Shown here one piece after another: positions 1-13,139 of a DNA stretch of 13,139 nt. Source of the DNA: a virus; the IMG/VR virus record IMGVR_UViG_3300045988_098052; one strand, 5' to 3'. The notes under the pieces are model-generated. The model saw only the letters and a program-made list of their open reading frames with translations, was not told where the DNA came from and did not search any database. Within the stretch, counting starts at the first letter, position 1. Each line of letters starts with the position of its first letter. A program made the translations under genes and the position numbers.

Positions 1-50
1 AAACTTGGCAAGACTAACCTGTGAACAAATTGTTAACATTTCCCCAATCT

Positions 51-79
51 GTTCATATTTCGTTCATATTTCGTTCATA
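51..79. repeat. Tandem 11-bp repeat GTTCATATTTC, 2.6 copies, about 50 bp from the genome end. The mirror copy is at 13061-13089.
   Basis: Direct reading gives units at 51-61 and 62-72 and a partial unit at 73-79. The half-site TGTTCA also occurs inverted as TGAACA at 22-27. Confidence 0.9.
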
Positions 80-159
80 ACATCAAAATTGGCATGATTC
101 TTGCTAGGCAACTATAACATTAAATTGCCTGACAATATCATACAAAGTCTGTCACTTAT

Positions 160-181
160 TCTATTGACATTCTATTGACAT
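160..181. repeat. Tandem 11-bp repeat TCTATTGACAT, 2 copies, each carrying a TTGACA box. The mirror copy is at 12959-12980.
   Basis: Direct reading gives units at 160-170 and 171-181. Confidence 0.9.
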
Positions 182-203
182 ATTAGTCCAATTGGACTAT
201 AAT
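175..203 (+). promoter_or_regulatory. Left-end early promoter, TTGACA-17 nt-TATAAT, with the 16-bp palindrome TAGTCCAATTGGACTA (184-199) in the spacer and overlapping the -10 box.
   Basis: TTGACA lies at 175-180 and TATAAT at 198-203, an exact sigma-A/sigma-70 consensus with a 17-nt spacer. A GGAGG RBS at 236-240 precedes the ATG at 250. Confidence 0.75.
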
Positions 204-249
204 ATAATCAACAAATAAATCACAGCCGATAGGCAGGAGGAAACAAGAT

Positions 250-438
250 ATGAAAGCAAATGAAGTAACAATGGAAATCATGGATGAAGTCGCAAGCTAT
301 ATGAATGATGAGATCAGAGAAGATATTCATATTGAATTAGCATCATGTACACCAGAAGAGTTTCTTACAGAATATTGCAATGCTGATCCAGATTTTGAAA
401 AATGGTGTCTTAATGATATCTTCGGTATTGAATTATAG
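250..438 (+). CDS. ITR-encoded 62-aa strongly acidic early protein of unknown function, left copy.
   Basis: The ORF has a GGAGG RBS and is the first gene after the consensus promoter. It has 17 D/E against 3 K/R. An identical protein is encoded at 12702-12890 (-). Confidence 0.8.
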   Translation: MKANEVTMEIMDEVASYMNDEIREDIHIELASCTPEEFLTEYCNADPDFEKWCLNDIFGIEL

Positions 439-452
439 GAGGTAAGTCAGTA

Positions 453-827
453 ATGAAATCAAAATACACAAAAATCAAATATACAAACACCGGGGTAAAA
501 GCCCCGGTTGTAACTCTTATTAAATCCAGGCCAGATCTTGATAGGTCGGATATGATAGAATTAAAATATCCAGAAATAAAGGTTACTATAAAGCGGATCT
601 CACGCAAGACAATGTACACACGTGCACAGTCTGTAATAAGTGTTATGAAAGATAATTTTAGTGCTTCATTTTTTGTGTATGATACAATCAATGATGCAAG
701 AGTGATTTGCGAAAATCTCTATTTGATCATTAAAAAACCAGAATTAGATTATTGTATTAATACTAGAGATTTTTATGAACTATATGAATATATGAAGGTG
801 GTGCTTAACAATGCCGAAGAATCCTAA
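453..827 (+). CDS. Hypothetical early protein, 124 aa, with a basic N-terminus.
   Basis: AGGAGG at 437-442 lies 10 nt upstream of the ATG. The ORF sits in the early operon and overlaps the next ORF start. I recognise no motif. Confidence 0.6.
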   Translation: MKSKYTKIKYTNTGVKAPVVTLIKSRPDLDRSDMIELKYPEIKVTIKRISRKTMYTRAQSVISVMKDNFSASFFVYDTINDARVICENLYLIIKKPELDYCINTRDFYELYEYMKVVLNNAEES

Positions 828-1431
828 AATCCCAACCACGTCAAAGGGTCTGAATGTCAACCCGAACATGCTAACAACGATGGAAGCTTTGCAACTCCGC
901 AAGCAGCTTGCAAAACGTCTGAATCAGCGTATGCGTAGGTTAAAAGCAAAAGGTTTTGACTCAGAAGTTGGCGGAGCGTACTCAGATTATCAAGATCTGC
1001 TTGCAAGATTTTTTCCAGGGCGATCCACTATTCCGGAAAATCTGGAAAATGAAAAATATAAAGGATTGCCTAGAACCCAAGTCAAAGCAATACAAAAAAT
1101 ACTGAAAGAAAAAAGCAGCACAGTCCAAGGCTGGCGTGAGATCATAGATAAACGTCAAAAGACCCTCAGCACAAAATACGGAATTAACTTTAAATCAAAA
1201 GAGGAAATGAAGTTATTTTTTACTTCTGAGGTCTGGAAGTGGATGCAGAATTTCTATGATAGTAAGCAAAGTATGAGAATAATTAGTCATAAACTTGATG
1301 ATTCTACGGCTTCTGAGATAATAAAAGATCTGGAAAAATTCCGGGGAAAAACAGATCCAGATATGGCTGACACGATAGCAAAACAGTTAGGGTTCTCCGG
1401 TGAAGTAGATGCTTTAAAATACAGGCCATAG
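811..1431 (+). CDS. Candidate terminal (priming) protein, 206 aa.
   Basis: It lies immediately upstream of the protein-primed DNA polymerase, as phi29 gene 3 does. It has a Lys/Arg-rich N-terminal part and a helical, charged composition. AAGGTGGTG serves as RBS. The call rests on position and composition only. Confidence 0.45.
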   Translation: MPKNPKIPTTSKGLNVNPNMLTTMEALQLRKQLAKRLNQRMRRLKAKGFDSEVGGAYSDYQDLLARFFPGRSTIPENLENEKYKGLPRTQVKAIQKILKEKSSTVQGWREIIDKRQKTLSTKYGINFKSKEEMKLFFTSEVWKWMQNFYDSKQSMRIISHKLDDSTASEIIKDLEKFRGKTDPDMADTIAKQLGFSGEVDALKYRP

Positions 1432-1447: not shown

Positions 1448-3571
1448 ATGATAGTAGCAGGATATCCGGTTATTTATTTCAAAAATTATGATTATATGCG
1501 ACTATTCAATGGTGATTTTATCCGGAGATCCAGCTCAGGTCATTATCTTGGGGTTTATGAAAAAATCATAACTATAGACACAGAGACATTTGTTTATATG
1601 AACAAAGATATTGGGTTTGTTACTGACTGGACAATCACCATAGAGGATGACTGTTGTATCTATGGCAACCATGTTTCAGATCTGATTAACACGATTGATA
1701 GGATCTGTACAACTCTTCATAGTGATGATAGTCATCTTGTACGGTTTTATGTGCATAATTTCCCTTATGACTATGTTTTTCTTAGAAACCATTTTTTTCA
1801 AAAATGGGGATATCCGGATAAATCCTTAGCTGCTAAAACTCACAAATATATATTTATGAAATGGACAGGCCAAGGCATTGAGTTCCGTGATAGTCTTATT
1901 CTCACACAGCGGTCATTAGAGAAGCTATGTAAAGACATGGGAACAACTGAAAAAGCAGTTGGAACATGGGACTATAAGAAGTTTAGAACACCAGCAAGTC
2001 CACGTACATCAAAAGAAATAGCATATGTCTGTACAGATACCATTAGTCTATGCAAGGCGTTACGCAAATACATTGATCAGCGAGGATTCAATGTGGCTAA
2101 CTGCCCATTGACAAATACGGGTTTTATTCGTACCAATGCCCGCAGGAGGTCAAGAAAAGATAAGAAATGGAGAAAGCAATTTGAGAATATGGCTCTGACG
2201 TTGGAGCAATACGATCAAATGCTTGACTGCTATCATGGGGGATATACGCATGCAAATAGGTATTATGTCAATCAGCTGATAAAAGAACCTGTTGAGTGCT
2301 ATGATTTTGCAAGCTCATACATTGCATGGATGTGCTATTGTAAATTTCCAATGAGTAACTTTTGTTATACTAATAATATAACATTAAAAGACATAATGGA
2401 ACTCAAAGAAGAGTATGCTTTTTCAGGATACATCAGATTAAAAAATCTGAGATTGAAAAAAGACTGTCCTATGCCGCCATTAGCTTTTTCAAAAGCGAAA
2501 GTATGTGTTTTTCCGGAAGCAAAAAGCAAAAAAGAACAGTTCCACGATAATCTGGATAATGGAAAGATCGTCAATGCTGATCTTGTCATATATCCCTTTA
2601 CGGATCCGGATTTAGAAGTAATCTTGTCAAGTTATGATTATGACTGGGCTGATGTCTCAAAAGTCATGAGAGCAACAAAAGATTACTTGCCGGAGTGGTT
2701 TACCGGATATTTGATGGAATTGTTTTTTAAAAAATGCACCCTTAAAGGCTTGGATGAAGCAAACTACATGATTTCAAAAGGGGAGCTGAATGGTATGTAT
2801 GGCATGACTGTACAGAGAATCATTCAGATCTTATGCACAGAGCTTATGGAATCCGGAGAATGGGAAGCAAAAGAACCTGAGGACAGGGAAAAGGAACTTG
2901 AAAAGTTCTATCGGAATAAAAATAGCTTCATGCCCTACCAGTGGGGAGTATGGATAACAGCATATGCACAAGCATATCTTTTCCGGTTGGGCGCCTGCTG
3001 CCGTAGGTGGTTATATTCTGACACTGATTCAGTAAAGGGAACAGACTGGGATCATGATAAACTGGATGAGTTTAACAAGTCTATCATCAATATGTCACAA
3101 AAAAGAAACATCGGAGTAGTTGAGTATAATTCTAAAACATTCCGACTGGGTATTGCTGAATTTGATGGGATATACAGTGAATTCATCACTATGGGAAGCA
3201 AGCGTTATTGCTACAGACTGAAAAAAGATGCATCCTTGCATCTGACAGTTGCAGGTGTACCAAAAGAGGGTATTTACTGTTTGGATGATAATATAACCAA
3301 TTTTAGAAAAGGTTTCATTTTCAAAAATGATTTGACATTTCGTAGGAATTACAGAAGATTGAATGATTGGCAGGATCCAAAATGGAAGATGAAAACGGAA
3401 TATATTTTTCATGAAGGAATCAATGAAGTGACTGTTGACGGATGCAGGATTGAATATGGTTGTGCCATCCGCTTGAGCGATACAGAATACGAGCTTGATC
3501 ACGCAATCCCATATGACAAGGAAACAGGCTTGCCGTTACCATTTGAGATTGAAGATACCGTATACGGATAA
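1448..3571 (+). CDS. Family-B protein-primed DNA polymerase (pPolB), 707 aa.
   Basis: Exonuclease motifs: ExoI IDTET (D44/E46), ExoII HNFPYD (N104/D108) and ExoIII YVCTD (Y193/D197). Polymerase motifs: pre-A CYHGGYT, motif A YDFASSY (D286, Y291), motif B KGELNGMYG (K444), motif C YSDTDS (D525/D527) and KxY as SKRY (K585). The motif order matches the phi29 polymerase. Confidence 0.93.
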   Translation: MIVAGYPVIYFKNYDYMRLFNGDFIRRSSSGHYLGVYEKIITIDTETFVYMNKDIGFVTDWTITIEDDCCIYGNHVSDLINTIDRICTTLHSDDSHLVRFYVHNFPYDYVFLRNHFFQKWGYPDKSLAAKTHKYIFMKWTGQGIEFRDSLILTQRSLEKLCKDMGTTEKAVGTWDYKKFRTPASPRTSKEIAYVCTDTISLCKALRKYIDQRGFNVANCPLTNTGFIRTNARRRSRKDKKWRKQFENMALTLEQYDQMLDCYHGGYTHANRYYVNQLIKEPVECYDFASSYIAWMCYCKFPMSNFCYTNNITLKDIMELKEEYAFSGYIRLKNLRLKKDCPMPPLAFSKAKVCVFPEAKSKKEQFHDNLDNGKIVNADLVIYPFTDPDLEVILSSYDYDWADVSKVMRATKDYLPEWFTGYLMELFFKKCTLKGLDEANYMISKGELNGMYGMTVQRIIQILCTELMESGEWEAKEPEDREKELEKFYRNKNSFMPYQWGVWITAYAQAYLFRLGACCRRWLYSDTDSVKGTDWDHDKLDEFNKSIINMSQKRNIGVVEYNSKTFRLGIAEFDGIYSEFITMGSKRYCYRLKKDASLHLTVAGVPKEGIYCLDDNITNFRKGFIFKNDLTFRRNYRRLNDWQDPKWKMKTEYIFHEGINEVTVDGCRIEYGCAIRLSDTEYELDHAIPYDKETGLPLPFEIEDTVYG

Positions 3572-3594
3572 ATTGTTATAAAATTGTAATAGTT

Positions 3595-3622: not shown

Positions 3623-3636
3623 CAGGAGGTGTAACT

Positions 3637-3750
3637 ATGAAAAAATTTTGGAGAGAAAACAAAGATGACATTGAAACGTTTTTTTGGACGTGCATCACTT
3701 TTGCCCTCATGTTTGCAAGCTGTCAAGTGTTGTTACTGATGGGCGATTAA
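3637..3750 (+). CDS. Small 37-aa membrane protein (MKKFWRENKDDIETFFWTCITFALMFASCQVLLLMGD).
   Basis: AGGAGG at 3624-3629 lies 7 nt upstream of the ATG. The protein has one hydrophobic span of about 20 residues. It is below the ORF-track length cutoff, so I translated it by hand. Confidence 0.5.
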   Translation: MKKFWRENKDDIETFFWTCITFALMFASCQVLLLMGD

Positions 3751-3772
3751 ATAAGTAAAGGAGGTGAGGAAA

Positions 3773-3910
3773 TTGATTGATATGTCAGAGATTTATGAAA
3801 CTATGAAAACAAGCACCCTGCGAAAAGTAACCTATGAGGATGATGAGATCAGTATAGTAGCTTACAAAGTAGGAAAAATTATTAGAATTGATGTAAAGGA
3901 GACAAAATAA
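3773..3910 (+). CDS. Hypothetical 45-aa protein with a TTG start at 3773. An alternative ATG at 3782 would give 42 aa.
   Basis: AAGGAGGTGAGG at 3758-3769 lies just upstream. The ORF fills the gap exactly up to the next gene's RBS. I translated it by hand. Confidence 0.45.
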   Translation: MIDMSEIYETMKTSTLRKVTYEDDEISIVAYKVGKIIRIDVKETK

Positions 3911-3911: not shown

Positions 3912-4211
3912 ATGTTAAAATCAAACGTAAAAATCACTTGTAAACCATACAATGGAAGTATATCAACAAAAGCTTTTATTGACCTTGAACTGGATAATAC
4001 CCTTGTAATTAAAGGACTTACGTTGGTTGAGGGGAACGATGGTCTTTTCCTCTCATTCCCAAGTAAAAAGGGAAAAAATGGAAAATATTACAAAAGAGTT
4101 TACTCTCTGGACAAAGAATGGAAGCAATTATTACAGGATGCTTGCGTCAAAAAATACAATGAGTGCAGAAAGACTGCACAGCCTGCATCCTCCGGGGGTG
4201 GATTTCGGTAA
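3912..4211 (+). CDS. spoVG: SpoVG-fold nucleic-acid-binding protein homologue, 99 aa.
   Basis: The stretch KAFIDLELDNTLVIKGLTLVEGNDGLFLSFPSKKGKNGKYY...LLQDACVKKY aligns by eye with B. subtilis SpoVG [38 protein letters not shown]...IQDAVLNEY. AAGGAG serves as RBS. Confidence 0.75.
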   Translation: MLKSNVKITCKPYNGSISTKAFIDLELDNTLVIKGLTLVEGNDGLFLSFPSKKGKNGKYYKRVYSLDKEWKQLLQDACVKKYNECRKTAQPASSGGGFR

Positions 4212-5257
4212 TGAATATCTATGATAGAAATGGTTGGCTGGACGTTCCAAGGATCGTCCAGCTTGCTGATAAAAATAAAATTAACTTCATATTCATAATT
4301 GGAGCCAGAAGAACTGGAAAAACATATGGTATTTTCCAGCACTTCATTAATAACGTTTTTTCACAAAATGAGAAGATCATATACATGCGCCGGACAAAAG
4401 AGCAGCTGACAAAAGTCTTTCTTCCGGAATTTGATCCATGGATTGACATAAACAAGGACATGAATAGGTTTTTTCATTTTGAGAAACCCAGAGGTGAATA
4501 TGGTCGTATTAAGATCGTAGAGCAGGTTAAAGATGAAGAAATTTATAGAGGTGAAGCATTTTGCCTTACGTCAATGCATAACAACCGTGGTTTCTCTGGA
4601 TCTGATTTTTCAGAAGGGATTTATGATGAATTTATTCCGGAGAAGATCGCAAAAGCAATAACTGGGGAAGATGATGCTTTTCTGAATGCTGTTGAAACCA
4701 TCTCAGCAAACAGGGAATTGCAAGGAAAGAAACCGTTCCGCTGGTGGCTTGCTTCCAACTCAAATACGCTGGATAATCCAATTGTGCAGGCTTTCGGTTT
4801 ACTTCCAATCTTGGAACGAATGAAAAAGAATAAGCAGGAATTTTCCATGCTGAAAGAACGAGGGATAATATTGGTTCTGATTAATGACTCACCGATATCG
4901 GAAAAGAAAAAAGATACAGCTTTGTATCGTGCATTATCAGGTGATACGGACTTTGAAAAAATGGCATTATCGAATGAATTTGCATATGATGACGTTTCTG
5001 CAATACGATCAGAAGATATCCGACAATATAGACTTATTTGTGTGATCGGAAAAGTTGCAATTTATGAGCATAAATCAAAAGCTCATTTGTATGTCTCAGA
5101 TCATATATCTGGTTCATGCAAAGATGTATTTGAGGACACACAGCATGGTAAAGACCAATTCAGATGCTTTTATAGTTGGATCGACAGCTATCGTCTGACA
5201 AATAGGATAAGCTATCAGAATATTTCTGTAAAATTCTATATTGACAAATTATTTTAA
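4211..5257 (+). CDS. phi29 gp16-like DNA encapsidation (packaging) ATPase, 348 aa from ATG 4211.
   Basis: INFIFIIGARRTGKTYG matches phi29 gp16 LNFVIGARGIGKSY (Walker A). IIYMRRTKEQL matches FIYVRRYKPEL, and GIYDEFIPE matches IVFDEFIRE (Walker B). I prefer the start at 4211, which gives a TAATG overlap with the upstream stop, over the ORF-track start at 4163, which would overlap the SpoVG-like gene by 49 nt. Confidence 0.9.
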   Translation: MNIYDRNGWLDVPRIVQLADKNKINFIFIIGARRTGKTYGIFQHFINNVFSQNEKIIYMRRTKEQLTKVFLPEFDPWIDINKDMNRFFHFEKPRGEYGRIKIVEQVKDEEIYRGEAFCLTSMHNNRGFSGSDFSEGIYDEFIPEKIAKAITGEDDAFLNAVETISANRELQGKKPFRWWLASNSNTLDNPIVQAFGLLPILERMKKNKQEFSMLKERGIILVLINDSPISEKKKDTALYRALSGDTDFEKMALSNEFAYDDVSAIRSEDIRQYRLICVIGKVAIYEHKSKAHLYVSDHISGSCKDVFEDTQHGKDQFRCFYSWIDSYRLTNRISYQNISVKFYIDKLF

Positions 5258-5269
5258 CAATCATATATT
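5241..5269 (+). promoter_or_regulatory. Candidate late or ncRNA promoter, TTGACA-17 nt-TATATT.
   Basis: TTGACA at 5241-5246 lies inside the last codons of the ATPase gene and TATATT lies at 5264-5269. The predicted transcription start near 5276 falls at the foot of the downstream structured element. Confidence 0.5.
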
Positions 5270-5273
5270 AGAG

Positions 5274-5354
5274 ATAGGTCAACGTGGCTACATCGACCGC
5301 CGGAAGCGGATGCCATGGGGTGATAACCCGGAAGCGTTGACCTATTTTAATTTT
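5274..5354 (+). ncRNA. GC-rich branched RNA structure followed by a U-tract. It could be a small ncRNA, a leader attenuator or a complex terminator.
   Basis: An 11-bp perfect closing stem pairs ATAGGTCAACG (5274-5284) with CGTTGACCTAT (5335-5345). It encloses 50 nt holding two small hairpins, CCGC/GCGG at 5297-5309 and GGG/CCC at 5318-5329. TTTTAATTTT follows. The region is non-coding and is the most GC-rich intergenic stretch in an AT-rich genome. Confidence 0.55.
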
Positions 5355-5380: not shown

Positions 5381-5746
5381 ATGAAAGTAGAGGAAATTTT
5401 GGAACTCGGAAAACTTGGATTCTCAAAAAATGAGATTATGGGAATTATGAATGCACAGAATATGTCCGGACTTGGACAGGTCACAACTCCGGGACAGTAT
5501 GCAACTCCGGGACAGTATGCAACTCCGGGACAGGTTACACCGGGACAGGTCACAATTCCGGGACAGGTTACACCGGGACAGGCCACAACTCCGGGACAGG
5601 ATGCAACAAATGCAGCTCTTCTGACAGCAATCAATACATTGACTGCTACGTTACAGGCTGGTAACCTTTCTGCATCCGGAAAAGCTGGATCAGCACCACG
5701 AACATCTGAGAACGTGGCAGAGGATCTCATGAAAATTATGAATTAA
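5381..5746 (+). CDS. Candidate scaffolding protein, 121 aa, with an internal (T)PGQ repeat array.
   Basis: GGAG serves as RBS. The gene lies directly upstream of the capsid gene, as phi29 gp7 does, and is of similar small size with helical N- and C-terminal segments. The call rests on position. Confidence 0.45.
   Translation: MKVEEILELGKLGFSKNEIMGIMNAQNMSGLGQVTTPGQYATPGQYATPGQVTPGQVTIPGQVTPGQATTPGQDATNAALLTAINTLTATLQAGNLSASGKAGSAPRTSENVAEDLMKIMN
5468..5606 (+). repeat. Imperfect tandem DNA repeats of CCGGGACAG plus 6-9 variable nt, 7 copies plus one degenerate copy, encoding GQ/PGQ repeats.
   Basis: Direct reading gives the protein stretch GLGQVTTPGQYATPGQYATPGQVTPGQVTIPGQVTPGQATTPGQDA. Two units are an identical 18-mer, ACTCCGGGACAGTATGCA. 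Confidence 0.9.
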
Positions 5747-7510: not shown

Positions 7511-7519
7511 GTGCAAAAC

Positions 7520-8170
7520 ATGACAGCTAACAAACTTGTCGAAAATGCAAAGGAATTAATTGGAGTGAGATATGTGTGGGGTGGTTCAAACCCCACACAG
7601 GGACTTGATTGCTCCGGATTGCTTTATTGGATCCAGAAGATGGCAGGATCAGAAGTTGGTAGACTGACTGCTTCCGGTTATTCAAAACTTGGAACAAGGA
7701 TTCCAATTGGGCAGCAGAAAGTAGGTGACTTCCTATTTTTTGGAACTCCGGTTACTCATTGTGCCATTTACGTTGGCAATGGTTATATGATCGAGAGCAG
7801 GGGTGGCAGAAAAAACACTGCTTACAATCCTGGTATTGGAGTAGTAAAAAGCCTTGTAACTCATAGGTCTGACTTATCCTGCATCCGCAGGGTATGGGAT
7901 AAGGTAGGATCCTATTATGAAATAGGTCATATTTATAATACTATGGTTGATCACTTACATGTACGATATAGTGTAGGGGGTCAGATCAAAGAGTATGCAC
8001 AGCTGACAAGGGATGGTATGAAACATGCTTATTCAGATGGTTGTTTGAAAAAAGGAACCACAGTCACGGTAAAAGATATAAAAAAGGATGATGCCGGAGC
8101 AACGTGGGTTAGGATTCCATCCGGATGGATCTGTGCAATCACAGCAAAAGGTGAGGTATATGTAAAATGA
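7520..8170 (+). CDS. NlpC/P60 cysteine endopeptidase with a C-terminal SH3b-like wall-binding domain. It is probably the endolysin and possibly also virion-associated.
   Basis: The N-terminal domain carries YVWGG...GLDCSGL (catalytic Cys)...GDFLFF...THCAIYVG (catalytic His). The C-terminal part, TTVTVKDIKKDDAGATWVRIPSGWI, looks SH3b-like. The start is either ATG 7520 or GTG 7511. Confidence 0.85.
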   Translation: MTANKLVENAKELIGVRYVWGGSNPTQGLDCSGLLYWIQKMAGSEVGRLTASGYSKLGTRIPIGQQKVGDFLFFGTPVTHCAIYVGNGYMIESRGGRKNTAYNPGIGVVKSLVTHRSDLSCIRRVWDKVGSYYEIGHIYNTMVDHLHVRYSVGGQIKEYAQLTRDGMKHAYSDGCLKKGTTVTVKDIKKDDAGATWVRIPSGWICAITAKGEVYVK

Positions 8171-9510
8171 CAGAGATTATTTTATTTCATTTTTCTAAAC
8201 GAAAAAACAGTACCAAAAGACCAGCAGGGCAGGGGACTTCTGTCTCCTGCCTTTTAAAAGCTAATACCACTTTTCAGAATCCAGTGTTTAAATTAAAATT
8301 GTCACTGGATAGTGCATTGCAATACAACTACTTACAATGGGCTGATCATTATTATTTCATTAATTCAACTACATCTATCAGTAACGACATGGTTGAGATA
8401 TCAGCAAGTGAGGATGTTTTGGCTACTTACCGGACAGAGATTGGCAACTATACATGTTTTATTGAGCGATCCAACAAGCAAAATACGCTTGCCAATGATA
8501 GAATGTACATCCCTACAAATGACTGGATAAGCCAGAGTGCAATAATAGCACAGCCAATAGATACCTTTGTGAATGGGTATGCACCAAACTATTTATTGCG
8601 TACTGTTTCGGTTGAGGGTGTAAACACCTACTATATGACAGGGGAGCAGATGAAAGAGCTATTTTCATTTATGTACACCTATGGCTCTATTCCGGATGTA
8701 GTTAATTCAGCACTTACAAAATTGCTTTTTAATCCGTTCCAGTATATTCTTGACTTAAAGTGGCTACCTATTAGAGTTGACAAATTTTTTAATGCATTTG
8801 ATACTGTAAAGCTAGGCTACTGGGATAGCCATGCAAGTGCCTTTTTAATAGGTGATGGATCCTGTTCTTTTTCCTACGATTTAAGCCTTGATAATCCCTT
8901 ATATGCTGATACAGATTTCAGATTTTACAATGCTGCTTTTTCAAAATATAGCGTAAAACTTCCATTTTTGGGGGTAATTCCTATCAATCCAGCAAAGACC
9001 CATAAAGGTCAGTTAGAAGCAAATTATAATTTTGACGCTGTTTCTGGAATGGCTGACATTTGGCTTACTTCCGGAACAGAGGAATATGCGCATTTCCAAT
9101 GTCAGCTTGCTGTTCCTATACAAATTGGATATGCTAGCAGTAACATTGGTCAGCTTACTACCAGCTTGATAGACATTGGTACAAGCCTTGCTTCCAATAA
9201 TCCGATAGGGGCTATAAAAAATACGGTAGGTGCTTTTCAGAGTGTGACATCTCCGGAGCCCAACATGGTAGGCACTGTTGGGAATATAACATCAATTCTT
9301 ACTAATATGGATGCAAACAGTATCTGCTATGCCTGCAAAAGCATAAATCCAGATGGATCAAGCGAAGGTTATGCAGATGGGAATGTTCGAAGTATTTCTT
9401 CATTGAGTGGCTTTGTAAAATGTAGGAATGCCTCTATCCAGGTTGCAGGTTTTGAGGGAGATCAAGATCAAGTGAATGATTATTTAAACAATGGTTTTTA
9501 TTTTGAATAA
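8167..9510 (+). CDS. phi29 gp9-like tail knob (distal tail tube) protein, 447 aa.
   Basis: The N-terminal stretch NYLQWADHYYFINSTTSISNDMVEISASEDVLATY resembles gp9 [41 protein letters not shown]. The C-terminal FVKCRNASIQVAGFEGDQDQVNDYLNNGFYFE resembles gp9 [32 protein letters not shown]. The start gives an ATGA overlap with the lysin stop. Confidence 0.6.
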   Translation: MTEIILFHFSKRKNSTKRPAGQGTSVSCLLKANTTFQNPVFKLKLSLDSALQYNYLQWADHYYFINSTTSISNDMVEISASEDVLATYRTEIGNYTCFIERSNKQNTLANDRMYIPTNDWISQSAIIAQPIDTFVNGYAPNYLLRTVSVEGVNTYYMTGEQMKELFSFMYTYGSIPDVVNSALTKLLFNPFQYILDLKWLPIRVDKFFNAFDTVKLGYWDSHASAFLIGDGSCSFSYDLSLDNPLYADTDFRFYNAAFSKYSVKLPFLGVIPINPAKTHKGQLEANYNFDAVSGMADIWLTSGTEEYAHFQCQLAVPIQIGYASSNIGQLTTSLIDIGTSLASNNPIGAIKNTVGAFQSVTSPEPNMVGTVGNITSILTNMDANSICYACKSINPDGSSEGYADGNVRSISSLSGFVKCRNASIQVAGFEGDQDQVNDYLNNGFYFE

Positions 9511-9525: not shown

Positions 9526-10446
9526 ATGTGGGTACCTATGAATTTTGATAAAATCAACATATGCACAAATTACTTTCAACCATCTGGAATTAAGGCTGAC
9601 AGCTTATATACAGACACCTTTGACCGGATGCTTTATGAACGTGTGTGTTCTATCCTTGATATAAAATACAATGCGAACATTGACATTGACTATTTCAAAT
9701 ATTGCTTACTTTTCGGTGGCTATATCTGCATCACAAAGACAGATCTTTATGGTCTTATTGCACAATACCCAATGTTGACAGGCTATAACATTTATTTTAA
9801 GCCTACGACAGCTACTATACACACGTATGCAAGCAATGCTACGATTGACATTGAGGATATGGAGATCGGAAAAGACTGTTCTGTCATATATCTCAGACCT
9901 ACTTTTTGCGGAATCGGAGATATTATTGGATTCTATAGTTATAAATTGGCACTTGTAGCATCAGCTTTTGACATGAACGTGTTTAACTCCAAACTTGCGT
10001 TTTTGATAGCAGCAAAAAACAAGTCATCAGCTCAGACATTGAAAAAAATCTATGACAGCATCCAGGCAGGTAATCCAGTTGAGGCTTTTGACGTGTCGTT
10101 AAAAACGGAGGACAGACAGGGAAGCAAACAAGATTCCTTTGAAACATTCAACAAAGATTTAAAGCAGAACTTTATAGCACAGGAGCTGATTGAAGTATTT
10201 GAGAAGCTTCTTGATCAGTTTGACACGGAAGTCGGCATTCCGTCCGTAGGATCTGATAAAAAAGAACGACTGAATGTGCTTGAGACAAGCAAAAATGATG
10301 CAGAATCTGTGACACGATTAACAACTTGGCTTGAAACAATGAAGGCAGGAATTGACATGACAAATAAGTTATATCCGGAGATGAATCTGTCAATCAAGAT
10401 CAGAAGTTATGAGACCGCGGAGGTAAAAAGTTATGGGACTATATAG
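9526..10446 (+). CDS. Portal protein (upper collar, connector), 306 aa, phi29 gp10-like.
   Basis: The size matches gp10 at 309 aa. DKKERLNVLETSKNDAESVT resembles gp10 [20 protein letters not shown]. The gene lies between the tail knob and lower-collar genes. AAGGAG serves as RBS. Confidence 0.75.
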   Translation: MWVPMNFDKINICTNYFQPSGIKADSLYTDTFDRMLYERVCSILDIKYNANIDIDYFKYCLLFGGYICITKTDLYGLIAQYPMLTGYNIYFKPTTATIHTYASNATIDIEDMEIGKDCSVIYLRPTFCGIGDIIGFYSYKLALVASAFDMNVFNSKLAFLIAAKNKSSAQTLKKIYDSIQAGNPVEAFDVSLKTEDRQGSKQDSFETFNKDLKQNFIAQELIEVFEKLLDQFDTEVGIPSVGSDKKERLNVLETSKNDAESVTRLTTWLETMKAGIDMTNKLYPEMNLSIKIRSYETAEVKSYGTI

Positions 10447-11122
10447 AGTAACGATAGCAGGACTTTACGAATGGAACAATACTCTGTTTGACAAGATGGA
10501 ATTCCCAGAAACAGCAGACAAGCAGAATTTTATTGATAGCTTGCTTCTGTCCTATGGAGATTGTGAGCCACTCTATCCGGACTGGGATTTCATGTATAAC
10601 AGTGCTATTCCTGCTTGGAGCAGGAAGTGGAAAACTAGCATTGACAAGGTTTATAATGTGTTAGAATTGACTAATTATGAACCGATTGAAAACTATGATC
10701 GTCATGAAGAATGGACAGATAGCCCGGATATGACACGAACAAGTCAGAGTTCCGGCCAGGATGTAAACAGGGCAGAAGCAGGACAGGGAACCACTACGAC
10801 CAACTCTGGCTCTGATACATCTACCAATGAAGTCAGTGCTTTTAATGATGCAAACTACAGCCCAAACGAAAAAACAACAACAAATTACGGAGGCAGTACA
10901 AAAGTACAAAGTTCTGGTGAAAATAAAAATACATTTGTGTACGGAAAGGGTGAGACAAGCCGAGAGACAGGTCAGAATAAGCATATCGGGCGTATTCATG
11001 GTAATATTGGAGTAACTACTTCACAGCGGATGATCCAGTCAGAGCTTGATTTAAGAAAACAAAGCTTCATTGACTATTGCACAGGGCTTTTTGCACAGGA
11101 TCTGCTTTTATTAATTTATTAA
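10433..11122 (+). CDS. Candidate lower collar or head-tail adaptor protein, 229 aa.
   Basis: It lies immediately downstream of the connector gene and overlaps it, as phi29 gp11 does. A long central S/T/G/N-rich stretch is compatible with the extended beta-hairpins of a tail tube. The call rests on position and composition. Confidence 0.5.
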   Translation: MGLYRVTIAGLYEWNNTLFDKMEFPETADKQNFIDSLLLSYGDCEPLYPDWDFMYNSAIPAWSRKWKTSIDKVYNVLELTNYEPIENYDRHEEWTDSPDMTRTSQSSGQDVNRAEAGQGTTTTNSGSDTSTNEVSAFNDANYSPNEKTTTNYGGSTKVQSSGENKNTFVYGKGETSRETGQNKHIGRIHGNIGVTTSQRMIQSELDLRKQSFIDYCTGLFAQDLLLLIY

Positions 11123-11134
11123 GGAGGAATTATT

Positions 11135-12391
11135 ATGATAAATAGATATCCACATGCTTCCATGCAAGATATGAATCTGGACTGGTTGCTGAAAGTTGGA
11201 AAACAGGCAGACAAAGATCATGAGGAATGGACGCATATCAAAGATACTGCTCAGACCATGATTGATGATGCCATCCAGAAATCTCTTGATGATGGAGAGA
11301 TTGGAAAAGTAGTAAATGAAGCTACTACCAAAGTAATTACTGAACAGATTGACCCATTAAAAGAACAGGTTGGAACAGATACAGCTGAGATCACAAAATT
11401 ACAGAAAAGAGAAGGACTTTTTGATCACTCCGGTAAAACCATCATAATCGGTGACAGCTACACCGTTGGTTATACACCGGACGGCAATGTAACTCCATGG
11501 ACAACTAACTTTATCAAGTACACAGGGCTTGAAGATGTAACTATTTCCGCAAATGGTGGGGCATCTTTCTCAACAGCTAGTAATTCATTTCTTATGCTGC
11601 TAAATGCTGTTCCGGCTTCTGCGGATGTCAAACAGATCCTTGTAGTAGGTGGATTTAATGAGTTTGGAAGCTATTCAGAAATTGAAAATTCAATCAACGC
11701 TTTTATGGGAGCAGCAGAAGCAAGATTTCCGAATGCCAAAGTGTTTTCCGCCATGGTAGCATGGTCAGTTGATAGGACGGATGACCCAAATGTGCAGAAT
11801 AGGCTTAAGATCGCAAAGAGTGTGTATAATACTCAACGGAAGAATTGGCGGTATCTGACAGGAAGCGATTATATTCTTCATGCAGATGGTTTCCTTGCAT
11901 CAGATGGATTTCATCCGAACACAACAGGGCAGGAACGGCTTGCAACCTATCTTGCTACAGCTGTAGAAACAGGATCGTGTAGTCCATCATTTTATGATGT
12001 TAATGCAAATTTTGAAGCAGGTGACTTTTCACCAGCACCAGGATCAAGTTGGACGTTTGTTAGCTCCTACAATGAGAATACAAGCACTCTGATCTGGGGT
12101 AACTATGTTTGCCTACCAAACAGCGGAACACTTGTCTGTGATGGCACGGAATACCGTTTGGGGCGGATTTTCTCAACGTCTTTTATCGGAGATCACAACG
12201 GATATACATGCTATCCAACTACTGTGATTATTAAGTCCGGAAGTGACTTTTATCACATCCCTGCACAGCTTAACTTCAGAGGACGGCATATCTATTTGAG
12301 CCTGTATGATATTTCAGACGATAAGCATAATTACCGGACTTTGACAGAAGTAACACAGGTACAGATTCATAGAGGTTCAATCACAATGTAA
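11135..12391 (+). CDS. Tail fibre or appendage protein with a central SGNH/GDSL hydrolase domain, 418 aa.
   Basis: The SGNH blocks are I IIIGDSYT (GDS at nt 11450-11458), II SANGGAS, III VVGGFNEF and V SDGFHPN (nt 11903-11920). A coiled-coil-like N-terminal 95 aa and a C-terminal 130 aa flank the domain. It is the last gene of the structural operon. Confidence 0.75.
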   Translation: MINRYPHASMQDMNLDWLLKVGKQADKDHEEWTHIKDTAQTMIDDAIQKSLDDGEIGKVVNEATTKVITEQIDPLKEQVGTDTAEITKLQKREGLFDHSGKTIIIGDSYTVGYTPDGNVTPWTTNFIKYTGLEDVTISANGGASFSTASNSFLMLLNAVPASADVKQILVVGGFNEFGSYSEIENSINAFMGAAEARFPNAKVFSAMVAWSVDRTDDPNVQNRLKIAKSVYNTQRKNWRYLTGSDYILHADGFLASDGFHPNTTGQERLATYLATAVETGSCSPSFYDVNANFEAGDFSPAPGSSWTFVSSYNENTSTLIWGNYVCLPNSGTLVCDGTEYRLGRIFSTSFIGDHNGYTCYPTTVIIKSGSDFYHIPAQLNFRGRHIYLSLYDISDDKHNYRTLTEVTQVQIHRGSITM

Positions 12392-12689
12392 TGAAAGATA
12401 GCCCAGCGTATGCTGGGCTATTGTTTTTTATGCATCTATTAAAAGCTTTCTGAGTAGCTTGACTACTGACCAGTTTGTTTTTTCTACAAAAAATGTTATC
12501 ATAAAAATAGACTTTCCAGTATTTAGATTTAGAGAGCTTAATTCCAACTCTATCATCAAAATTAAGATAAGATGCAAACAAGATATTAAGGTCATCATCA
12601 TATTCACATCTTAACCCTTGATTTTCAAGGTCACATGCAAGCTGACTAAATGTCATGACATTCTTAACATAACACACATTGTATTTCAT
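12381..12689 (-). CDS. Hypothetical right-end early protein, 102 aa.
   Basis: GGAGGG serves as RBS, directly after the stop of the ITR gene copy. It is the second gene of the right-end operon. Its 3' end runs through the terminator hairpin and overlaps the tail-fibre gene by 11 nt. I recognise no motif. Confidence 0.55.
   Translation of the reverse strand: MKYNVCYVKNVMTFSQLACDLENQGLRCEYDDDLNILFASYLNFDDRVGIKLSKSKYWKVYFYDNIFCRKNKLVSSQATQKAFNRCIKNNSPAYAGLSFITL
12398..12429 (+). terminator. Intrinsic terminator of the long + strand operon, possibly bidirectional.
   Basis: A perfect 10-bp stem pairs ATAGCCCAGC with GCTGGGCTAT around the loop GTAT. TGTTTTTT follows, 7 nt after the tail-fibre stop. 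An A-rich tract lies upstream on the other side. Confidence 0.85.
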
Positions 12690-12701
12690 GTTCTCACCCT
12701 C

Positions 12702-12890
12702 CTACAGTTCAATACCGAAGATATCATTAAGACACCATTTTTCAAAATCTGGATCAGCATTGCAATATTCTGTAAGAAACTCTTCTGGTGTACATGATGC
12801 TAATTCAATATGAATATCTTCTCTGATCTCATCATTCATATAGCTTGCGACTTCATCCATGATTTCCATTGTTACTTCATTTGCTTTCAT
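12702..12890 (-). CDS. ITR-encoded 62-aa strongly acidic early protein, right copy.
   Basis: The protein is identical to that of 250-438. The nucleotides are identical except in the last sense codon, CTG here against TTA on the left. Confidence 0.8.
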   Translation of the reverse strand: MKANEVTMEIMDEVASYMNDEIREDIHIELASCTPEEFLTEYCNADPDFEKWCLNDIFGIEL

Positions 12891-13139
12891 ATCTTGTTTC
12901 CTCCTGCCTATCGGCTGTGATTTATTTGTTGATTATATTATAGTCCAATTGGACTAATATGTCAATAGAATGTCAATAGAATAAGTGACAGACTTTGTAT
13001 GATATTGTCAGGCAATTTAATGTTATAGTTGCCTAGCAAGAATCATGCCAATTTTGATGTTATGAACGAAATATGAACGAAATATGAACAGATTGGGGAA
13101 ATGTTAACAATTTGTTCACAGGTTAGTCTTGCCAAGTTT
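12708..13139. repeat. Right inverted terminal repeat, the mirror copy of nt 1-432.
   Basis: Exact reverse complement of nt 1-432. The window ends ...ggttagtcttgccaagttt, which is the reverse complement of aaacttggcaagactaacc at the start. Confidence 0.95.
12937..12965 (-). promoter_or_regulatory. Right-end early promoter, the mirror copy of 175-203 with the same palindrome at 12941-12956.
   Basis: It lies inside the perfect ITR, so its sequence is identical on the minus strand. It drives the 12890..12702 and 12689..12381 ORFs. Confidence 0.75.

What the first reader, a model, noticed from the sequence alone, without database searches (positions are those of the whole stretch)
1..13139. Whole window is a complete 13.1-kb protein-primed podovirus-like genome with unusually long 432-bp ITRs
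The two ends are exact inverted copies for 432 bp. The interior holds a full but minimal phi29-type gene set: a terminal-protein candidate, pPolB, a gp16-like ATPase, scaffold candidate, capsid, gp9-like tail knob, gp10-like connector, lower collar, holin, lysin and tail fibre. phi29 is about 19.3 kb with 6-bp ITRs, and Staphylococcus phage P68 and Streptococcus phage C1 are about 17-18 kb, so this is near the lower size limit for tailed phages. The ITRs take up about 6.6% of the genome. The layout also differs from phi29. Replication, packaging and structural genes all lie on one strand, the ATPase gene precedes the head genes, and the lysis cassette sits between head and tail genes.
Basis: partly seen in the sequence, partly recalled or inferred. 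Interest (0 to 1): 0.75.

Follow-up and report, generated by a model that had tools for sequence, protein, structure and literature searches.

The report
Small gut phi29-like phage genome
The window is a complete 13.1-kb genome of a phi29-type (protein-primed) short-tailed phage from a common but uncultured human-gut lineage; it is ordinary in kind, but its terminal repeats have grown to include a likely anti-CRISPR gene at both ends, and it carries a conserved structured RNA of unknown role just before its head genes.

Summary
The two ends are exact inverted copies for 432 nt, or 442 nt with two synonymous mismatches. The interior encodes a full phi29-type gene set. The ends are real DNA ends: at least 15 independent relatives start or stop at the same AAACTTGGCAAG, and in one an Illumina adapter tail is fused directly to it.

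The genome is not a novelty in kind. More than 50 near-complete congeners (82-84% ANI) are in IMG/VR, one is in GenBank (MT836115.1), and hundreds of protein clusters are in public assemblies. Cultured protein-primed podoviruses of 10.4-12.3 kb are smaller. The gene order matches the cultured Amedibacillus phages AD70P2/P3.

In this clade the core ITR is about 225-250 nt: origin, a perfect sigma-70 promoter and an RBS. The window's ITR is longer because it also contains the first early gene, a 62-aa acidic AcrIC5-family protein. That gene lies at the left end in some relatives, at the right end in others, and at both ends here.

Side finding: a promoter-proximal three-way-junction RNA of about 70 nt (5276-5354) lies between the ATPase gene and the head genes. 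It has strong covariation, occurs in nine divergent lineages and is absent from Rfam. It could be a late-operon leader or a minimal packaging RNA.

The parts
1..442 (+). Left inverted terminal repeat. It is exact to nt 432 and runs to 442 with 2 mismatches. It contains the terminus AAACTTGGCAAG, 11-nt direct repeats, an early promoter, an RBS and the AcrIC5-like gene.
12698..13139 (-). Right inverted terminal repeat, a mirror copy of the left one.
1..12 (+). Genome terminus and presumed minimal replication origin, AAACTTGGCAAG. The 5' AAA reiteration is what sliding-back initiation requires.
   Evidence: The same terminus is found at the end of at least 15 independent contigs. In L035 the Illumina adapter tail CTTCCGATCT is fused directly to it. 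The AAA rule comes from PMC6266182.
51..79 (+). Direct repeats GTTCATATTTC/GTTCATATTTC/GTTCATA inside the ITR. This is a candidate binding array for an origin- or DNA-binding protein (inferred).
   Evidence: (I6/I7). The copy number varies in relatives.
175..203 (+). Left early promoter, TTGACA-17-TATAAT (12/12 consensus), facing inward.
12937..12965 (-). Right early promoter, an identical copy facing inward.
250..438 (+). 62-aa acidic AcrIC5-family protein (anti-CRISPR candidate), left copy. It is the first gene after the promoter.
   Evidence: PF22147 at 37.5 bits against a gathering score of 27. All 13 database homologues carry PF22147. pI 4.05, with 17 D/E against 3 K/R.
12702..12890 (-). 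Second, identical copy of the AcrIC5-like gene, at the right end.
453..827 (+). 124-aa early protein of unknown function, conserved in the clade.
   Evidence: No family hit.
811..1431 (+). 206-aa terminal-protein candidate, assigned by position only. It is predicted to be all-helical. Its family has near-invariant R40, S103, G107 and S151.
   Evidence: It lies directly upstream of pol, as in phi29, GA-1 and Cp-1. It has 77 homologues of 185-250 aa. There is no detectable similarity to gp3-type TPs, the PDB or Pfam. The model has pLDDT 50.
1448..3571 (+). [quoted passage not shown] Exo I-III motifs, motif B (KGELNGMYG), motif C (YSDTDS) and KxY are present.
   Evidence: The motifs were read from the sequence.
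3637..3750 (+). 37-aa small hydrophobic protein, conserved in relatives.
3764..3910 (+). Small early protein of 48 aa from the GTG start. It more likely starts at ATG 3782 (MSEIYET...), as in relatives.
3912..4211 (+). 99-aa SpoVG-fold nucleic-acid-binding protein.
   Evidence: PF04026 at 1.1e-15. NF009749 matches but below its cutoff.
4211..5257 (+). gp16-type DNA packaging ATPase (348 aa from ATG 4211).
   Evidence: PF05894 and phrog_2150 at 4e-29. The start was chosen by comparison with relatives.
5241..5269 (+). Late (morphogenesis) promoter, TTGACA-17-TATATT (11/12), conserved across the clade.
5276..5354 (+). Conserved three-way-junction RNA: P1, P2/P2b with a CGGAA pentaloop, and P3, followed by a U-tract. 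It starts at the predicted transcription start of the late promoter.
   Evidence: Fold z = -3.4. 8 of 20 pairs show compensatory changes, 98.8% of cells are paired, and 0 of 500 shuffles reach this. The CM hit scores 127.8 bits. The same architecture is found in nine lineages. There is no Rfam hit.
5381..5746 (+). 121-aa scaffold candidate (positional), with an internal TPGQ-type tandem repeat.
   Evidence: D1; homologues lie upstream of the MCP in distant loci.
5762..6958 (+). phi29-type major capsid protein (398 aa).
   Evidence: PF25622 at 1.3e-15.
6958..7281 (+). Variable ORF of about 107 aa, function unknown. It is absent from or replaced in many relatives.
7286..7510 (+). 74-aa protein with an N-terminal TM segment; holin-like, weakly supported.
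   Evidence: phrog_4898 holin at 1.5e-3. Homologues occur in 9 distant loci.
7511..8170 (+). NlpC/P60 peptidoglycan endopeptidase. It is an endolysin candidate and could be virion-associated.
   Evidence: PF00877 at 5e-17; phrog_329.
8167..9510 (+). gp9-like tail knob protein (447 aa).
   Evidence: Synteny. phrog_2248 at 2.7e-4. hhalign over the N-terminus, E 1e-3. The top 9 Foldseek hits are the phi29 gp9, C1 gp12 and Andhra tail knobs, best E 8.7e-6, but the model's pLDDT is 44.
9526..10446 (+). gp10-type head-tail connector (portal).
   Evidence: PF05352 at 5e-14 and phrog_2038 at 1e-23.
10433..11122 (+). gp11-like lower collar (229 aa).
   Evidence: hhalign of the family profile against phi29/GA-1/Cp-1 gp11 gives 94.6%, E 7e-8. 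Synteny agrees.
11135..12391 (+). Tail fibre/appendage with an SGNH (GDSL) esterase domain (418 aa).
   Evidence: PF13472 and phrog_31573 at 7e-25.
12397..12422 (.). Bidirectional intrinsic terminator where the rightward and leftward transcription units converge.
   Evidence: It is conserved in relatives.
12381..12689 (-). 102-aa right-end early protein, function unknown. Its homologues are the ~91-aa M(K/R)xN(P/Q)YYNK proteins of relatives.

Best explanation
The window is the complete linear genome of a virulent phi29-like podovirus of a Gram-positive gut bacterium.

Replication (inferred from the phi29 paradigm): a terminal protein, probably the 206-aa product upstream of pol, primes the family-B polymerase at each 3' end. 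The AAA terminal reiteration allows sliding-back.

Transcription: each ITR carries a perfect sigma-70 promoter facing inward, so whichever end enters the cell first, the first transcript starts with the ITR-proximal gene. The left unit continues through the TP, pol, SpoVG-like and ATPase genes. A second strong promoter at 5241-5269 drives the head, lysis and tail genes through a structured RNA leader. A bidirectional terminator at 12397-12422 separates this unit from the short leftward unit at the right end.

ITR enlargement: in the clade the ITR is normally the ~225-250-nt non-coding module. The slots just inside it hold interchangeable small early genes that move between the two ends. In this genome the promoter-proximal AcrIC5-family gene is present at both ends, and end-to-end copying has made the two copies identical. 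That copying could be recombination, template switching or panhandle repair between ITRs. It extends the identity tract to 432 nt and doubles the dose of a probable type I-C CRISPR inhibitor.

Shown: the anatomy, the homologies, the physical termini and the variable position of the gene.
Inferred: protein priming by p206, anti-CRISPR activity, and the copying mechanism.
For: - ITR.
- Physical ends: a shared AAACTTGGCAAG terminus in many independent contigs, and an adapter-genome junction in L035.
- phi29-type modules.
- Promoters and terminator.
- ITR lengths in end-complete relatives are 117-334 nt, mostly 224-257.
- The arms are variable, and the same small genes occur at either end.
- The Acr-like gene is at the left end in L070 and at the right end in L069 and L071-73. 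It is always in a promoter-proximal slot.
- The junction shows two synonymous mismatches followed by a shared RBS. This fits a gene-conversion tract in an already duplicated gene. It does not fit a k-mer mis-join.
- L026 has a 334-nt ITR that contains part of another arm gene, so this kind of expansion has happened more than once.
- AcrIC5 family: a Pfam hit above the gathering score, strongly acidic composition, and orthologues known in Firmicutes and Actinobacteria of the gut, where the protein blocks DNA binding (PMC7913775).
Against: - The terminal protein is not detectably related to gp3-type TPs, and its model is poor.
- No reads are available, so 2x coverage of the ITR and sharp coverage drop-offs at the ends are untested.
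- Some related contigs are clearly chimeric or folded back (L005, L008, L018, L027, L032, L042). Assembly errors at these ends do therefore occur.
- The AcrIC5 match covers 35 residues, and no Aca-type regulator lies next to the gene.
- The host is unknown.
Confidence: 0.85

Rival explanations
1. The genome is real, but the 432-nt ITR is an assembly product. On this view the true ITR is the ~240-nt core and the Acr-like gene exists at only one end. The second copy would come from merging two co-occurring variants, one carrying the gene on the left and one on the right, or from a fold-back.
For: Both single-end variants exist in nature: L070 on the left, L069 and L071-73 on the right. Several related contigs show fold-backs or chimeric ends (L005 557 nt, L018 1430 nt, L008 at 80% identity, L027, L032).
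Against: - The two copies are 100% identical over 432 nt, whereas the natural variants differ by 10-13% within the gene.
- The junction shares only 7-10 nt and contains two mismatches. That is too little to seed a de Bruijn mis-join.
- Both outer ends finish exactly at the conserved physical terminus.
- The total length (13,139) lies within the clade's range.
Confidence: 0.1
2. The ITR-borne 62-aa protein is not an anti-CRISPR. It would be another kind of immediate-early host-takeover or anti-defence protein, for example a DNA mimic aimed at restriction enzymes or at other nucleic-acid-binding defences, that merely shares a helical acidic motif with the AcrIC5 family.
For: The match covers only residues 11-45. 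There is no hit in NCBIfam or PHROGs and none to any solved structure. No aca gene is adjacent. Small acidic proteins are common DNA mimics (general knowledge).
Against: The score is above Pfam's curated cut-off, and all 13 homologues are independently assigned to PF22147. AcrIC5 orthologues are documented in gut Firmicutes and Actinobacteria.
Confidence: 0.3
3. Readings of the structured RNA at 5276-5354:
(a) It is the leader of the late operon. This means a promoter-proximal terminator/attenuator or an antitermination site, analogous to lambda PR'-tR' or to nut/put elements, that times head and tail gene expression.
(b) It is a minimal packaging RNA, a pRNA analogue, that links connector and ATPase.
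(c) It is only the terminator of the early operon.
For: - (a) It begins at the predicted transcription start of the only strong internal promoter. In most lineages it ends in P1 plus a U-tract just before the scaffold RBS. A downstream segment next to the RBS can pair back into the element.
- (b) It is a three-way junction closed by a 5'/3' helix, has its own promoter and terminator, and always lies next to the gp16-type ATPase gene. It is conserved wherever ATPase and connector are conserved, including the cultured Amedibacillus phage.
- (c) It has a stem plus U-tract.
Against: - (a) No antiterminator protein has been identified. Three lineages keep the structure but lack a U-tract.
- (b) It is about 70 nt against 120-174 nt for pRNA. 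There is no RF00044 hit. There is no consistent loop-loop complementarity (3 nt or less). The invariant CNGAA loop is unlike the variable loops of pRNAs.
- (c) Invariant loops, and a junction conserved across family-level divergence, are not expected of a plain terminator.
Confidence: 0.45

Closest known systems
Uncultivated human-gut congeners: GenBank MT836115.1 (Mexico, unannotated) and more than 50 IMG/VR UViGs (e.g. IMGVR_UViG_3300045988_084784)
   Same: Same gene order. Polymerase 92-95% aa identical; 82-84% ANI over 85-97% of the genome. Same AAACTTGGCAAG terminus, the same ITR promoter and the same structured RNA.
   Different: Below the 95% species line. Their ITRs are 117-334 nt and usually non-coding. 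The Acr-like gene is absent or present at one end only.
Amedibacillus phages AD70P2/AD70P3 (cultured; placed in Guelinviridae by NCBI; 12.2-12.3 kb)
   Same: Same module order (TP slot-pol ... ATPase-RNA element-head-knob-portal-collar-fibre). Homologous pol, ATPase, MCP, knob, portal, collar and 74-aa protein.
   Different: Only 25-31% aa identity. No lysis cassette between MCP and knob. No ITR was detected in the deposited record. No SpoVG-like or AcrIC5-like gene was found.
Streptococcus phage Cp-1 (Salasmaviridae, Cepunavirus)
   Same: Protein-primed, with a long ITR (236 bp annotated). TP, pol and structural genes lie on one strand, with a short leftward early unit at the right end.
   Different: 19.3 kb. 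The ATPase and lysis genes lie at the right of the late operon. Its MCP is not detectably similar by tblastn. Its ITR is non-coding.
Bacillus phage phi29 (Salasmaviridae)
   Same: pPolB (hhalign 99.4%), gp16 ATPase, gp8-type MCP, gp9-gp10-gp11 order, AAA terminus, a bidirectional terminator between convergent units.
   Different: 19.3 kb with a 6-bp ITR. Early genes lie on the opposite strand. It has pRNA at the left end and the p4/p5/p6 proteins, none of which is detectable here.
AcrIC5 (type I-C anti-CRISPR, Pseudomonas; Pfam PF22147)
   Same: Small, highly acidic, phage-borne. The Pfam model matches above its gathering score.
   Different: Too distant for direct sequence comparison. It is not next to an aca gene. 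It sits inside the ITR of a protein-primed phage. Its activity is untested.
phi29 prohead RNA (Rfam RF00044), and lambda-type promoter-proximal late leaders (PR'-tR' 6S RNA; nut/put sites)
   Same: Three-way junction closed by a 5'/3' helix, encoded with its own promoter in a phi29-like genome (as pRNA is). Alternatively, a short terminated transcript between a strong promoter and the late genes (as in lambda; general knowledge).
   Different: About 70 nt rather than 120-174. No interlocking loops and no CM match. No Q/N-like protein has been identified.

Membership tests
phi29-like protein-primed podoviruses (Salasmaviridae/Rountreeviridae/Guelinviridae assemblage) | [quoted passage not shown] | tested here: met
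   PF03175, and phrog_1907 at 3.6e-50. The family profile hits only phi29 DNAP in the PDB, E 5.6e-18. hhalign gives 99.4% over 466 columns.
phi29-like protein-primed podoviruses | Linear genome with inverted terminal repeats and a reiterated terminal nucleotide (sliding-back) | tested here: met
   432/442-nt ITR. The terminus AAACTTGG is shared by independent contigs and is adapter-tagged in L035. The AAA rule comes from PMC6266182.
phi29-like protein-primed podoviruses | Terminal protein covalently bound to the 5' ends | not testable with these tools
   Only a positional candidate exists (811-1431). A profile of 63 homologues shows no similarity to the phi29/GA-1/Cp-1 TPs, the PDB or Pfam. 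Covalent linkage needs wet-lab work.
phi29-like protein-primed podoviruses | gp16-type packaging ATPase, gp8-type MCP, gp10 connector | tested here: met
   PF05894, PF25622 and PF05352 all score above their gathering scores.
phi29-like protein-primed podoviruses | gp9 tail knob and gp11 lower collar flanking the connector gene | tested here: met
   Collar: hhalign 94.6%, E 7e-8. Knob: the top 9 Foldseek hits are tail knobs, E down to 8.7e-6, but the model's pLDDT is 44 and the TM-score about 0.24. Support for the knob is therefore moderate.
phi29-like protein-primed podoviruses | Prohead RNA (Rfam RF00044), known in Bacillus members only | tested here: not met
   No Rfam match at E <= 1 anywhere in the window. 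A different conserved RNA is present at 5276-5354.
Guelinviridae / Salasmaviridae / Rountreeviridae (family-level placement) | Clusters with members in proteome or marker phylogeny | tested here: inconclusive
   The nearest cultured phages are the Amedibacillus phages (labelled Guelinviridae) at 25-31% aa identity. The MCP has no tblastn hit to C. perfringens Guelinviridae, Salasmaviridae or Rountreeviridae. The review PMC11476376 notes that the Amedibacillus placement itself needs clarification. No ViPTree or vConTACT run was possible.
AcrIC5 anti-CRISPR family (PF22147) | Sequence match to the family model above the curated threshold | tested here: met
   37.5 bits against a gathering score of 27, E 2.6e-9. 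All 13 homologues are pre-annotated PF22147.
AcrIC5 anti-CRISPR family (PF22147) | Small, strongly acidic protein | tested here: met
   62 aa, pI 4.05, 17 D/E against 3 K/R. AcrIC5 is described as highly acidic.
AcrIC5 anti-CRISPR family (PF22147) | Inhibits type I-C CRISPR-Cas (blocks target DNA binding) | not testable with these tools
   This needs a functional assay. The host and its CRISPR type are unknown.
AcrIC5 anti-CRISPR family (PF22147) | Association with an aca (HTH regulator) gene | tested here: not met
   The neighbouring ORFs (p124, p102) have no HTH or any other family hit.
phi29-type pRNA | Three-way junction with a closing 5'/3' helix | tested here: met
   RNAalifold and covariation. 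Independent folds in nine lineages agree.
phi29-type pRNA | Two hairpin loops with intermolecular Watson-Crick complementarity (interlocking loops) | tested here: not met
   The best loop-loop complement is 1-3 nt and is inconsistent across lineages.
phi29-type pRNA | Required for DNA packaging; bound to the connector and gp16 | not testable with these tools
   This needs RNase-sensitivity and prohead-binding assays, which are feasible in the cultured Amedibacillus phage AD70P3.

The most novel reading that the evidence does not exclude
The conserved ~70-nt three-way-junction RNA lies immediately after the gp16-type ATPase gene in this genome and in at least eight other divergent phi29-like lineages, including the cultured Amedibacillus phage AD70P3. 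It may be a minimal packaging RNA. If so, RNA-dependent DNA packaging, currently regarded as unique to phi29 and its Bacillus relatives, would be an ancestral and general feature of the whole phi29-like assemblage.

A second, smaller novelty: the ITRs of protein-primed phages act as mobile double-dose expression cassettes for anti-CRISPR genes.
Probability: 0.25. Interest if true: 0.85.

Novelty: new member of a known kind. Interest (0 to 1): 0.5.

Why it matters
As a genome it adds one more species to a very common but uncultured and unnamed gut phage lineage, which is of modest value.

Two aspects are more useful:
1. The clade gives a natural series showing how the ITRs of protein-primed genomes grow, shrink and shuttle early accessory genes between ends. 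Here an AcrIC5-family gene sits in the first-transcribed position at both ends. That arrangement would guarantee immediate anti-CRISPR expression whichever end enters the cell first.
2. A previously undescribed, strongly covarying RNA sits between the packaging ATPase and the head genes across family-level divergence. This makes an old question directly testable in a cultured phage: do phi29-like phages outside Bacillus use a packaging RNA, or how else do they time late genes?

Tried and rejected
- Rfam scan of the whole window at E <= 1: nothing, so no known pRNA or other RNA family. No tRNAs.
- Terminal protein: single-sequence and 63-member profile searches against phi29/GA-1/Cp-1 gp3, the PDB and Pfam all gave nothing. 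The AlphaFold model has pLDDT 50 and was not used.
- Tail knob and collar: single-sequence and profile searches of the PDB and PHROGs were negative. The assignments were resolved only by hhalign (collar) and Foldseek (knob).
- Polymerase: the single-sequence PDB search was negative, but the profile search was positive.
- Host inference through endolysin relatives in 185k genomes: only the generic NlpC/P60 domain matched, at 27-47% identity, mostly in Firmicutes and Actinobacteria with a few other hits. This is uninformative.
- Exact search of IMG/VR for the first 26 nt of the ITR: no hit, because relatives differ at positions 13-16.
- The gap 3572-3763 was considered as a pRNA locus and rejected. 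It holds a conserved 37-aa ORF and its fold z-score is -0.66.
- A pseudoknot between the CGGAA loop and the downstream CUUCCGG is not conserved in L055, L056 or L072, which instead pair with a different segment. It is left as an unexplained alternative pairing.
- p62 against the PDB: only spurious nanobody matches.
- NCBIfam added nothing except SpoVG.

Full report
OBSERVATION

The two ends of the window are exact inverted copies for 432 nt. The repeat finder extends the arms to 1-442 / 12698-13139. The extra 10 nt contain two mismatches, at 433 and 435. These convert the last Leu codon of an ITR-borne ORF from TTA to CTG, a synonymous change, and are followed by a shared stop codon and GGAGG.

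GC content is about 38%, with a steady positive GC skew that reverses only in the last ~600 nt. This matches the coding strands: nearly everything is on the + strand, and two ORFs at the right end are on the - strand.

ARE THE ENDS REAL?

A polymerase-based scan of IMG/VR returned 65 loci, more than 50 of them 12.4-13.8-kb relatives. At least 15 contig ends from independent assemblies start or stop with exactly AAACTTGGCAAG. Two more distant genomes (L055, L056; polymerase 68% identical) start with AAACTAGGCAAGG.

In L035 the contig end reads CTTCCGATCT|AAACTTGGCAAG. The first ten bases are the 3' tail of the Illumina TruSeq adapter (my own knowledge of the adapter sequence). So a sequenced fragment began at precisely this base.

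The window therefore runs from the first to the last nucleotide of a linear molecule. The 5' AAA is the reiteration that all phi29-like termini show and that sliding-back initiation needs (PMC6266182).

GENE CONTENT

The following are firmly identified:
- Protein-primed PolB, 1448-3571. PF03175 and phrog_1907 at 3.6e-50. A nine-member family profile hits only phi29 DNA polymerase in the whole PDB, E 5.6e-18. hhalign against phi29 gp2 gives 99.4% over 466 columns. The Exo I-III, B, C (YSDTDS) and KxY motifs are visible in the translation.
- gp16-type ATPase: PF05894. The likely start is ATG 4211, as in relatives.
- Phi29_MCP: PF25622.
- gp10 connector: PF05352.
- NlpC/P60 lysin.
- SGNH/GDSL tail protein.

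The 229-aa protein after the connector is a gp11-type lower collar (family profile against phi29/GA-1/Cp-1 gp11: 94.6%, E 7e-8).

The 447-aa protein before the connector gave only weak sequence signals, and its AlphaFold model was poor (pLDDT 44). Even so, the nine best Foldseek hits in about 350,000 PDB chains are all tail knobs of phi29, C1 and Andhra (E down to 8.7e-6). With the synteny, the gp9-like assignment is reasonable.

The holin (74 aa) is weakly supported. The scaffold assignment (121 aa, with TPGQ tandem repeats) is positional.

The terminal-protein candidate (206 aa, directly upstream of pol, as in phi29, GA-1 and Cp-1) belongs to a real family of 77 representatives, 185-250 aa long. 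A 63-member profile of that family shows no similarity to gp3-type TPs, to the PDB or to Pfam, and its model is unusable. Near-invariant S103 and S151 are candidate priming residues; this is inference only.

A 99-aa SpoVG-fold protein lies between pol and the ATPase gene. No p4, p5 or p6 homologues were detected.

TRANSCRIPTION MAP

Each ITR holds a perfect TTGACA-17-TATAAT promoter facing inward (175-203 and 12965-12937). An 11/12 promoter lies at 5241-5269, and a bidirectional terminator at 12397-12422. The layout is thus a long rightward early unit, a rightward late unit, and a short leftward early unit at the right end. This is the Cp-1 plan. The gene order is also that of the cultured Amedibacillus phages.

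HOW NEW IS IT?

GenBank holds one unannotated congener (MT836115.1, human faeces, Mexico): 84% identity over 88% of the genome. The IMG/VR relatives have 92-95% polymerase identity and 82-84% ANI over 85-97% of the genome. That means the same genus-level cluster but different species.

Protein searches find hundreds of 90%-identity clusters for the TP and knob proteins. Some contain about 1000 member sequences, and none is named.

The nearest cultured phages are Amedibacillus AD70P2/P3, at 25-31% aa identity. A 2024 survey lists more than 2000 phi29-like genomes, including many 12-17-kb human-gut ones (PMC11476376).

Smaller tailed phages exist: 10.4 kb (Vibrio K58 g2), 11.2-11.9 kb (Astrithrvirus-type) and 12.2 kb. 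So the window is a new member of a known kind and is not at the size limit.

WHY THE ITR IS LONG

In end-complete relatives the ITR is 117-334 nt, mostly 224-257. It ends at the start codon of the first gene. In other words it is the origin + promoter + RBS module, and is comparable with Cp-1's 236 bp. Bacillus phi29-likes have ITRs of 6-16 bp and C. perfringens phages 25-30 bp.

Inside the ITRs lie variable slots of small ORFs. On the left these are nothing at all, a 77-81-aa MKRGMILNG protein, a 59-aa ...RLYELA protein, or a 148-aa or 231-aa ORF. On the right there is a conserved ~91-aa protein, with or without the RLYELAH protein and with or without a 62-aa protein. The same genes occur on either side in different genomes.

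The window's ITR contains the 62-aa gene. This protein matches Pfam AcrIC5 above the gathering score (37.5 against 27 bits), as do all 13 of its database homologues. It is very acidic (pI 4.05).

AcrIC5 blocks target-DNA binding by type I-C Cascade and has orthologues in gut Firmicutes and Actinobacteria (PMC7913775; preprint 10.1101/2025.06.06.658234).

The gene is at the left end in L070, at the right end in L069 and L071-73, and second or third in the right arm of L014, L016 and L029. It is always in a promoter-proximal slot. In the window it is at both ends.

The identity tract stops just before the stop codon, with two synonymous differences and then a shared RBS. This is what a gene-conversion or recombination endpoint in an already duplicated gene looks like. 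A k-mer mis-join would not produce it.

L026, with a 334-nt ITR that contains a fragment of the RLYELAH gene, shows that such expansions recur.

Mechanism (inferred): end-to-end copying through ITR pairing, by panhandle repair, template switching or recombination, as established for adenovirus and for linear plasmids (general knowledge). The functional consequence (inferred) is two copies of the first-transcribed gene, expressed whichever end enters the cell first.

ARTEFACT RISK

Some relatives are plainly mis-assembled:
- L005 and L052 are fold-backs.
- L018 has a 1430-nt ITR that reaches into the tail-fibre gene.
- L008 has an 80%-identical inverted left-end copy at its right end.
- L027 and L032 carry foreign sequence at an end.
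- L042 carries a poly-A run.

Without reads I cannot exclude that the window's second Acr copy is a chimera. I put this at about 10% for the reasons given above.

SIDE FINDING: A CONSERVED STRUCTURED RNA

The 123-nt gap between the ATPase gene and the scaffold gene folds with z = -3.4 into a Y-shape. In 52 distinct sequences from relatives the element is much better conserved than its flanks. The variable spacer after the -10 box gives way to conservation exactly at the predicted transcription start.

On a 24-sequence alignment that includes L055 and L056, RNAalifold gives:
- P1, 9 bp;
- P2, 3 bp, plus P2b, 4 bp, with loop CGGAA;
- P3, 4 bp.

Eight of the 20 pairs carry double compensatory changes. 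98.8% of cells are paired, and no shuffle out of 500 and no slid register comes close. G-U pairs favour the + strand RNA.

A covariance model finds weak hits at the same syntenic position in L061, L062 and L064. Independent folding shows the same architecture right after the ATPase gene in nine lineages whose polymerases are only ~30% identical, including the cultured Amedibacillus phage AD70P3. That architecture is P1 (followed by a U-tract in six of the nine), P2 capped by a C-N-G-A-A loop, and a P3 hairpin; most copies also have a sigma-70-type promoter just upstream. Rfam 15 has nothing like it.

pRNA is considered unique to phi29 and its Bacillus relatives (PMC11476376; PMC5066667). This element shares the three-way junction, the closing helix, its own promoter and a place beside the ATPase gene. 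But it is half the size, lacks interlocking-loop complementarity and has an invariant loop.

The alternative is a late-operon leader, attenuator or antitermination site, analogous to lambda PR'-tR'. I consider this somewhat more likely (about 45% against 25%). The persistence of the fold in three lineages without a U-tract argues against a mere terminator.

VERDICT

The claims of extreme size, unique layout and absence of relatives are not supported. The genome is a new species of an abundant, uncultured, unnamed gut phi29-like lineage.

The interesting residue is the gene-bearing, evolutionarily mobile ITR with an AcrIC5-family gene, and the undescribed conserved RNA in front of the morphogenesis genes.

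Noticed in passing
window 5276-5354 (CM hit 5268-5376); also L055 6112-6218, L056 6105-6213, L062 4787-4893, L061 5246-5352, L064 5136-5243, and just after the ATPase gene in L059, L060, L063, L065 and L002: An undescribed, strongly covarying three-way-junction RNA with a conserved C-N-G-A-A loop. It follows a sigma-70-type promoter (in most copies) and lies between the packaging ATPase and the head genes in nine divergent phi29-like lineages. It has no Rfam match. It is either a late-operon leader/attenuator or a minimal pRNA analogue.
   Followed up: yes
window 5357-5366 against 5306-5313; L055, L056 and L072 at the equivalent positions: A segment just upstream of the scaffold RBS (CUUCCGGC) is complementary to the P2b loop and stem (GCCGGAAG). 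In L055, L056 and L072 the corresponding segment is instead complementary to the P2-3'/P3-5' strand (GCCACGG/GCCGUGG). This could be an alternative pairing or riboregulation. It is unexplained.
   Followed up: partly
window 3912-4211: A SpoVG-fold protein (PF04026) encoded between pol and the ATPase gene. It is conserved in the clade and in L055/L056 but was not detected in the more distant lineages. It may stand in for the missing phi29 p6/p5-type DNA-binding proteins, or it may bind the RNA element. This is speculation.
   Followed up: partly
left and right arms of L004-L054, L069-L073 (first ~250-850 nt inside each end): The slots just inside the ITRs hold a changing set of small ORFs: MKRGMILNG 77-81 aa, ...RLYELAH 58-64 aa, the Acr-like 62 aa, and 148-aa and 231-aa ORFs. 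The same genes appear at the left end in some genomes and at the right end in others. This indicates exchange between ends.
   Followed up: yes
L018 1-1430 / 12147-13576; L005 1-557; L008 234-695 against 12419-12880; L052: Relatives with very long or internal inverted duplications. L018's 1430-nt ITR reaches into the tail-fibre gene. L008 has an 80%-identical inverted copy of the left-end genes at its right end. These may be assembly fold-backs or chimeras, or real defective or recombinant genomes.
   Followed up: no
L035 right end; L042 left end; L027 right end; L032 left end: Technical remnants in public contigs: an Illumina adapter tail fused to the true terminus (L035), a 33-nt poly-A run (L042), and unrelated high-GC sequence joined to the ITR (L027, L032).
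   Followed up: partly
window 5468-5625: Tandem 18/33-nt repeats encoding (T/I)PGQ(V/Y)(A/T) units inside the scaffold candidate. The protein's length varies (105-123 aa) among relatives.
   Followed up: no
window 21-37 and 51-79 (and mirror copies): Inside the ITR there is a 17-nt imperfect palindrome, GTGAACAAATTGTTAAC (14/17 self-complementary, read directly from the sequence), and 2-3 copies of GTTCATATTTC whose number varies among relatives. These are candidate protein-binding sites of the origin. There is also a duplicated TTCTATTGACA at 159-180, which creates two overlapping -35 boxes.
   Followed up: no
window 6958-7281: A variable ORF between the MCP and the holin-like gene, with two alternative RBS + ATG starts 75 nt apart (repeat D6). 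It is absent from many relatives (L069, L070) and replaced by unrelated ORFs of about 105 aa in others (L031, L072).
   Followed up: no
window 7286-7510; L059, L063, L064, L065: Homologues of the 74-aa 'holin-like' protein are among the few proteins shared with distant lineages. There they sit directly after the RNA element rather than next to a lysin, so the holin label is uncertain.
   Followed up: no
protein P0257: A 2909-aa database protein matches residues 101-133 of the TP candidate in 22 separate stretches. It appears to be a large repeat protein containing this motif. It was not examined.
   Followed up: no
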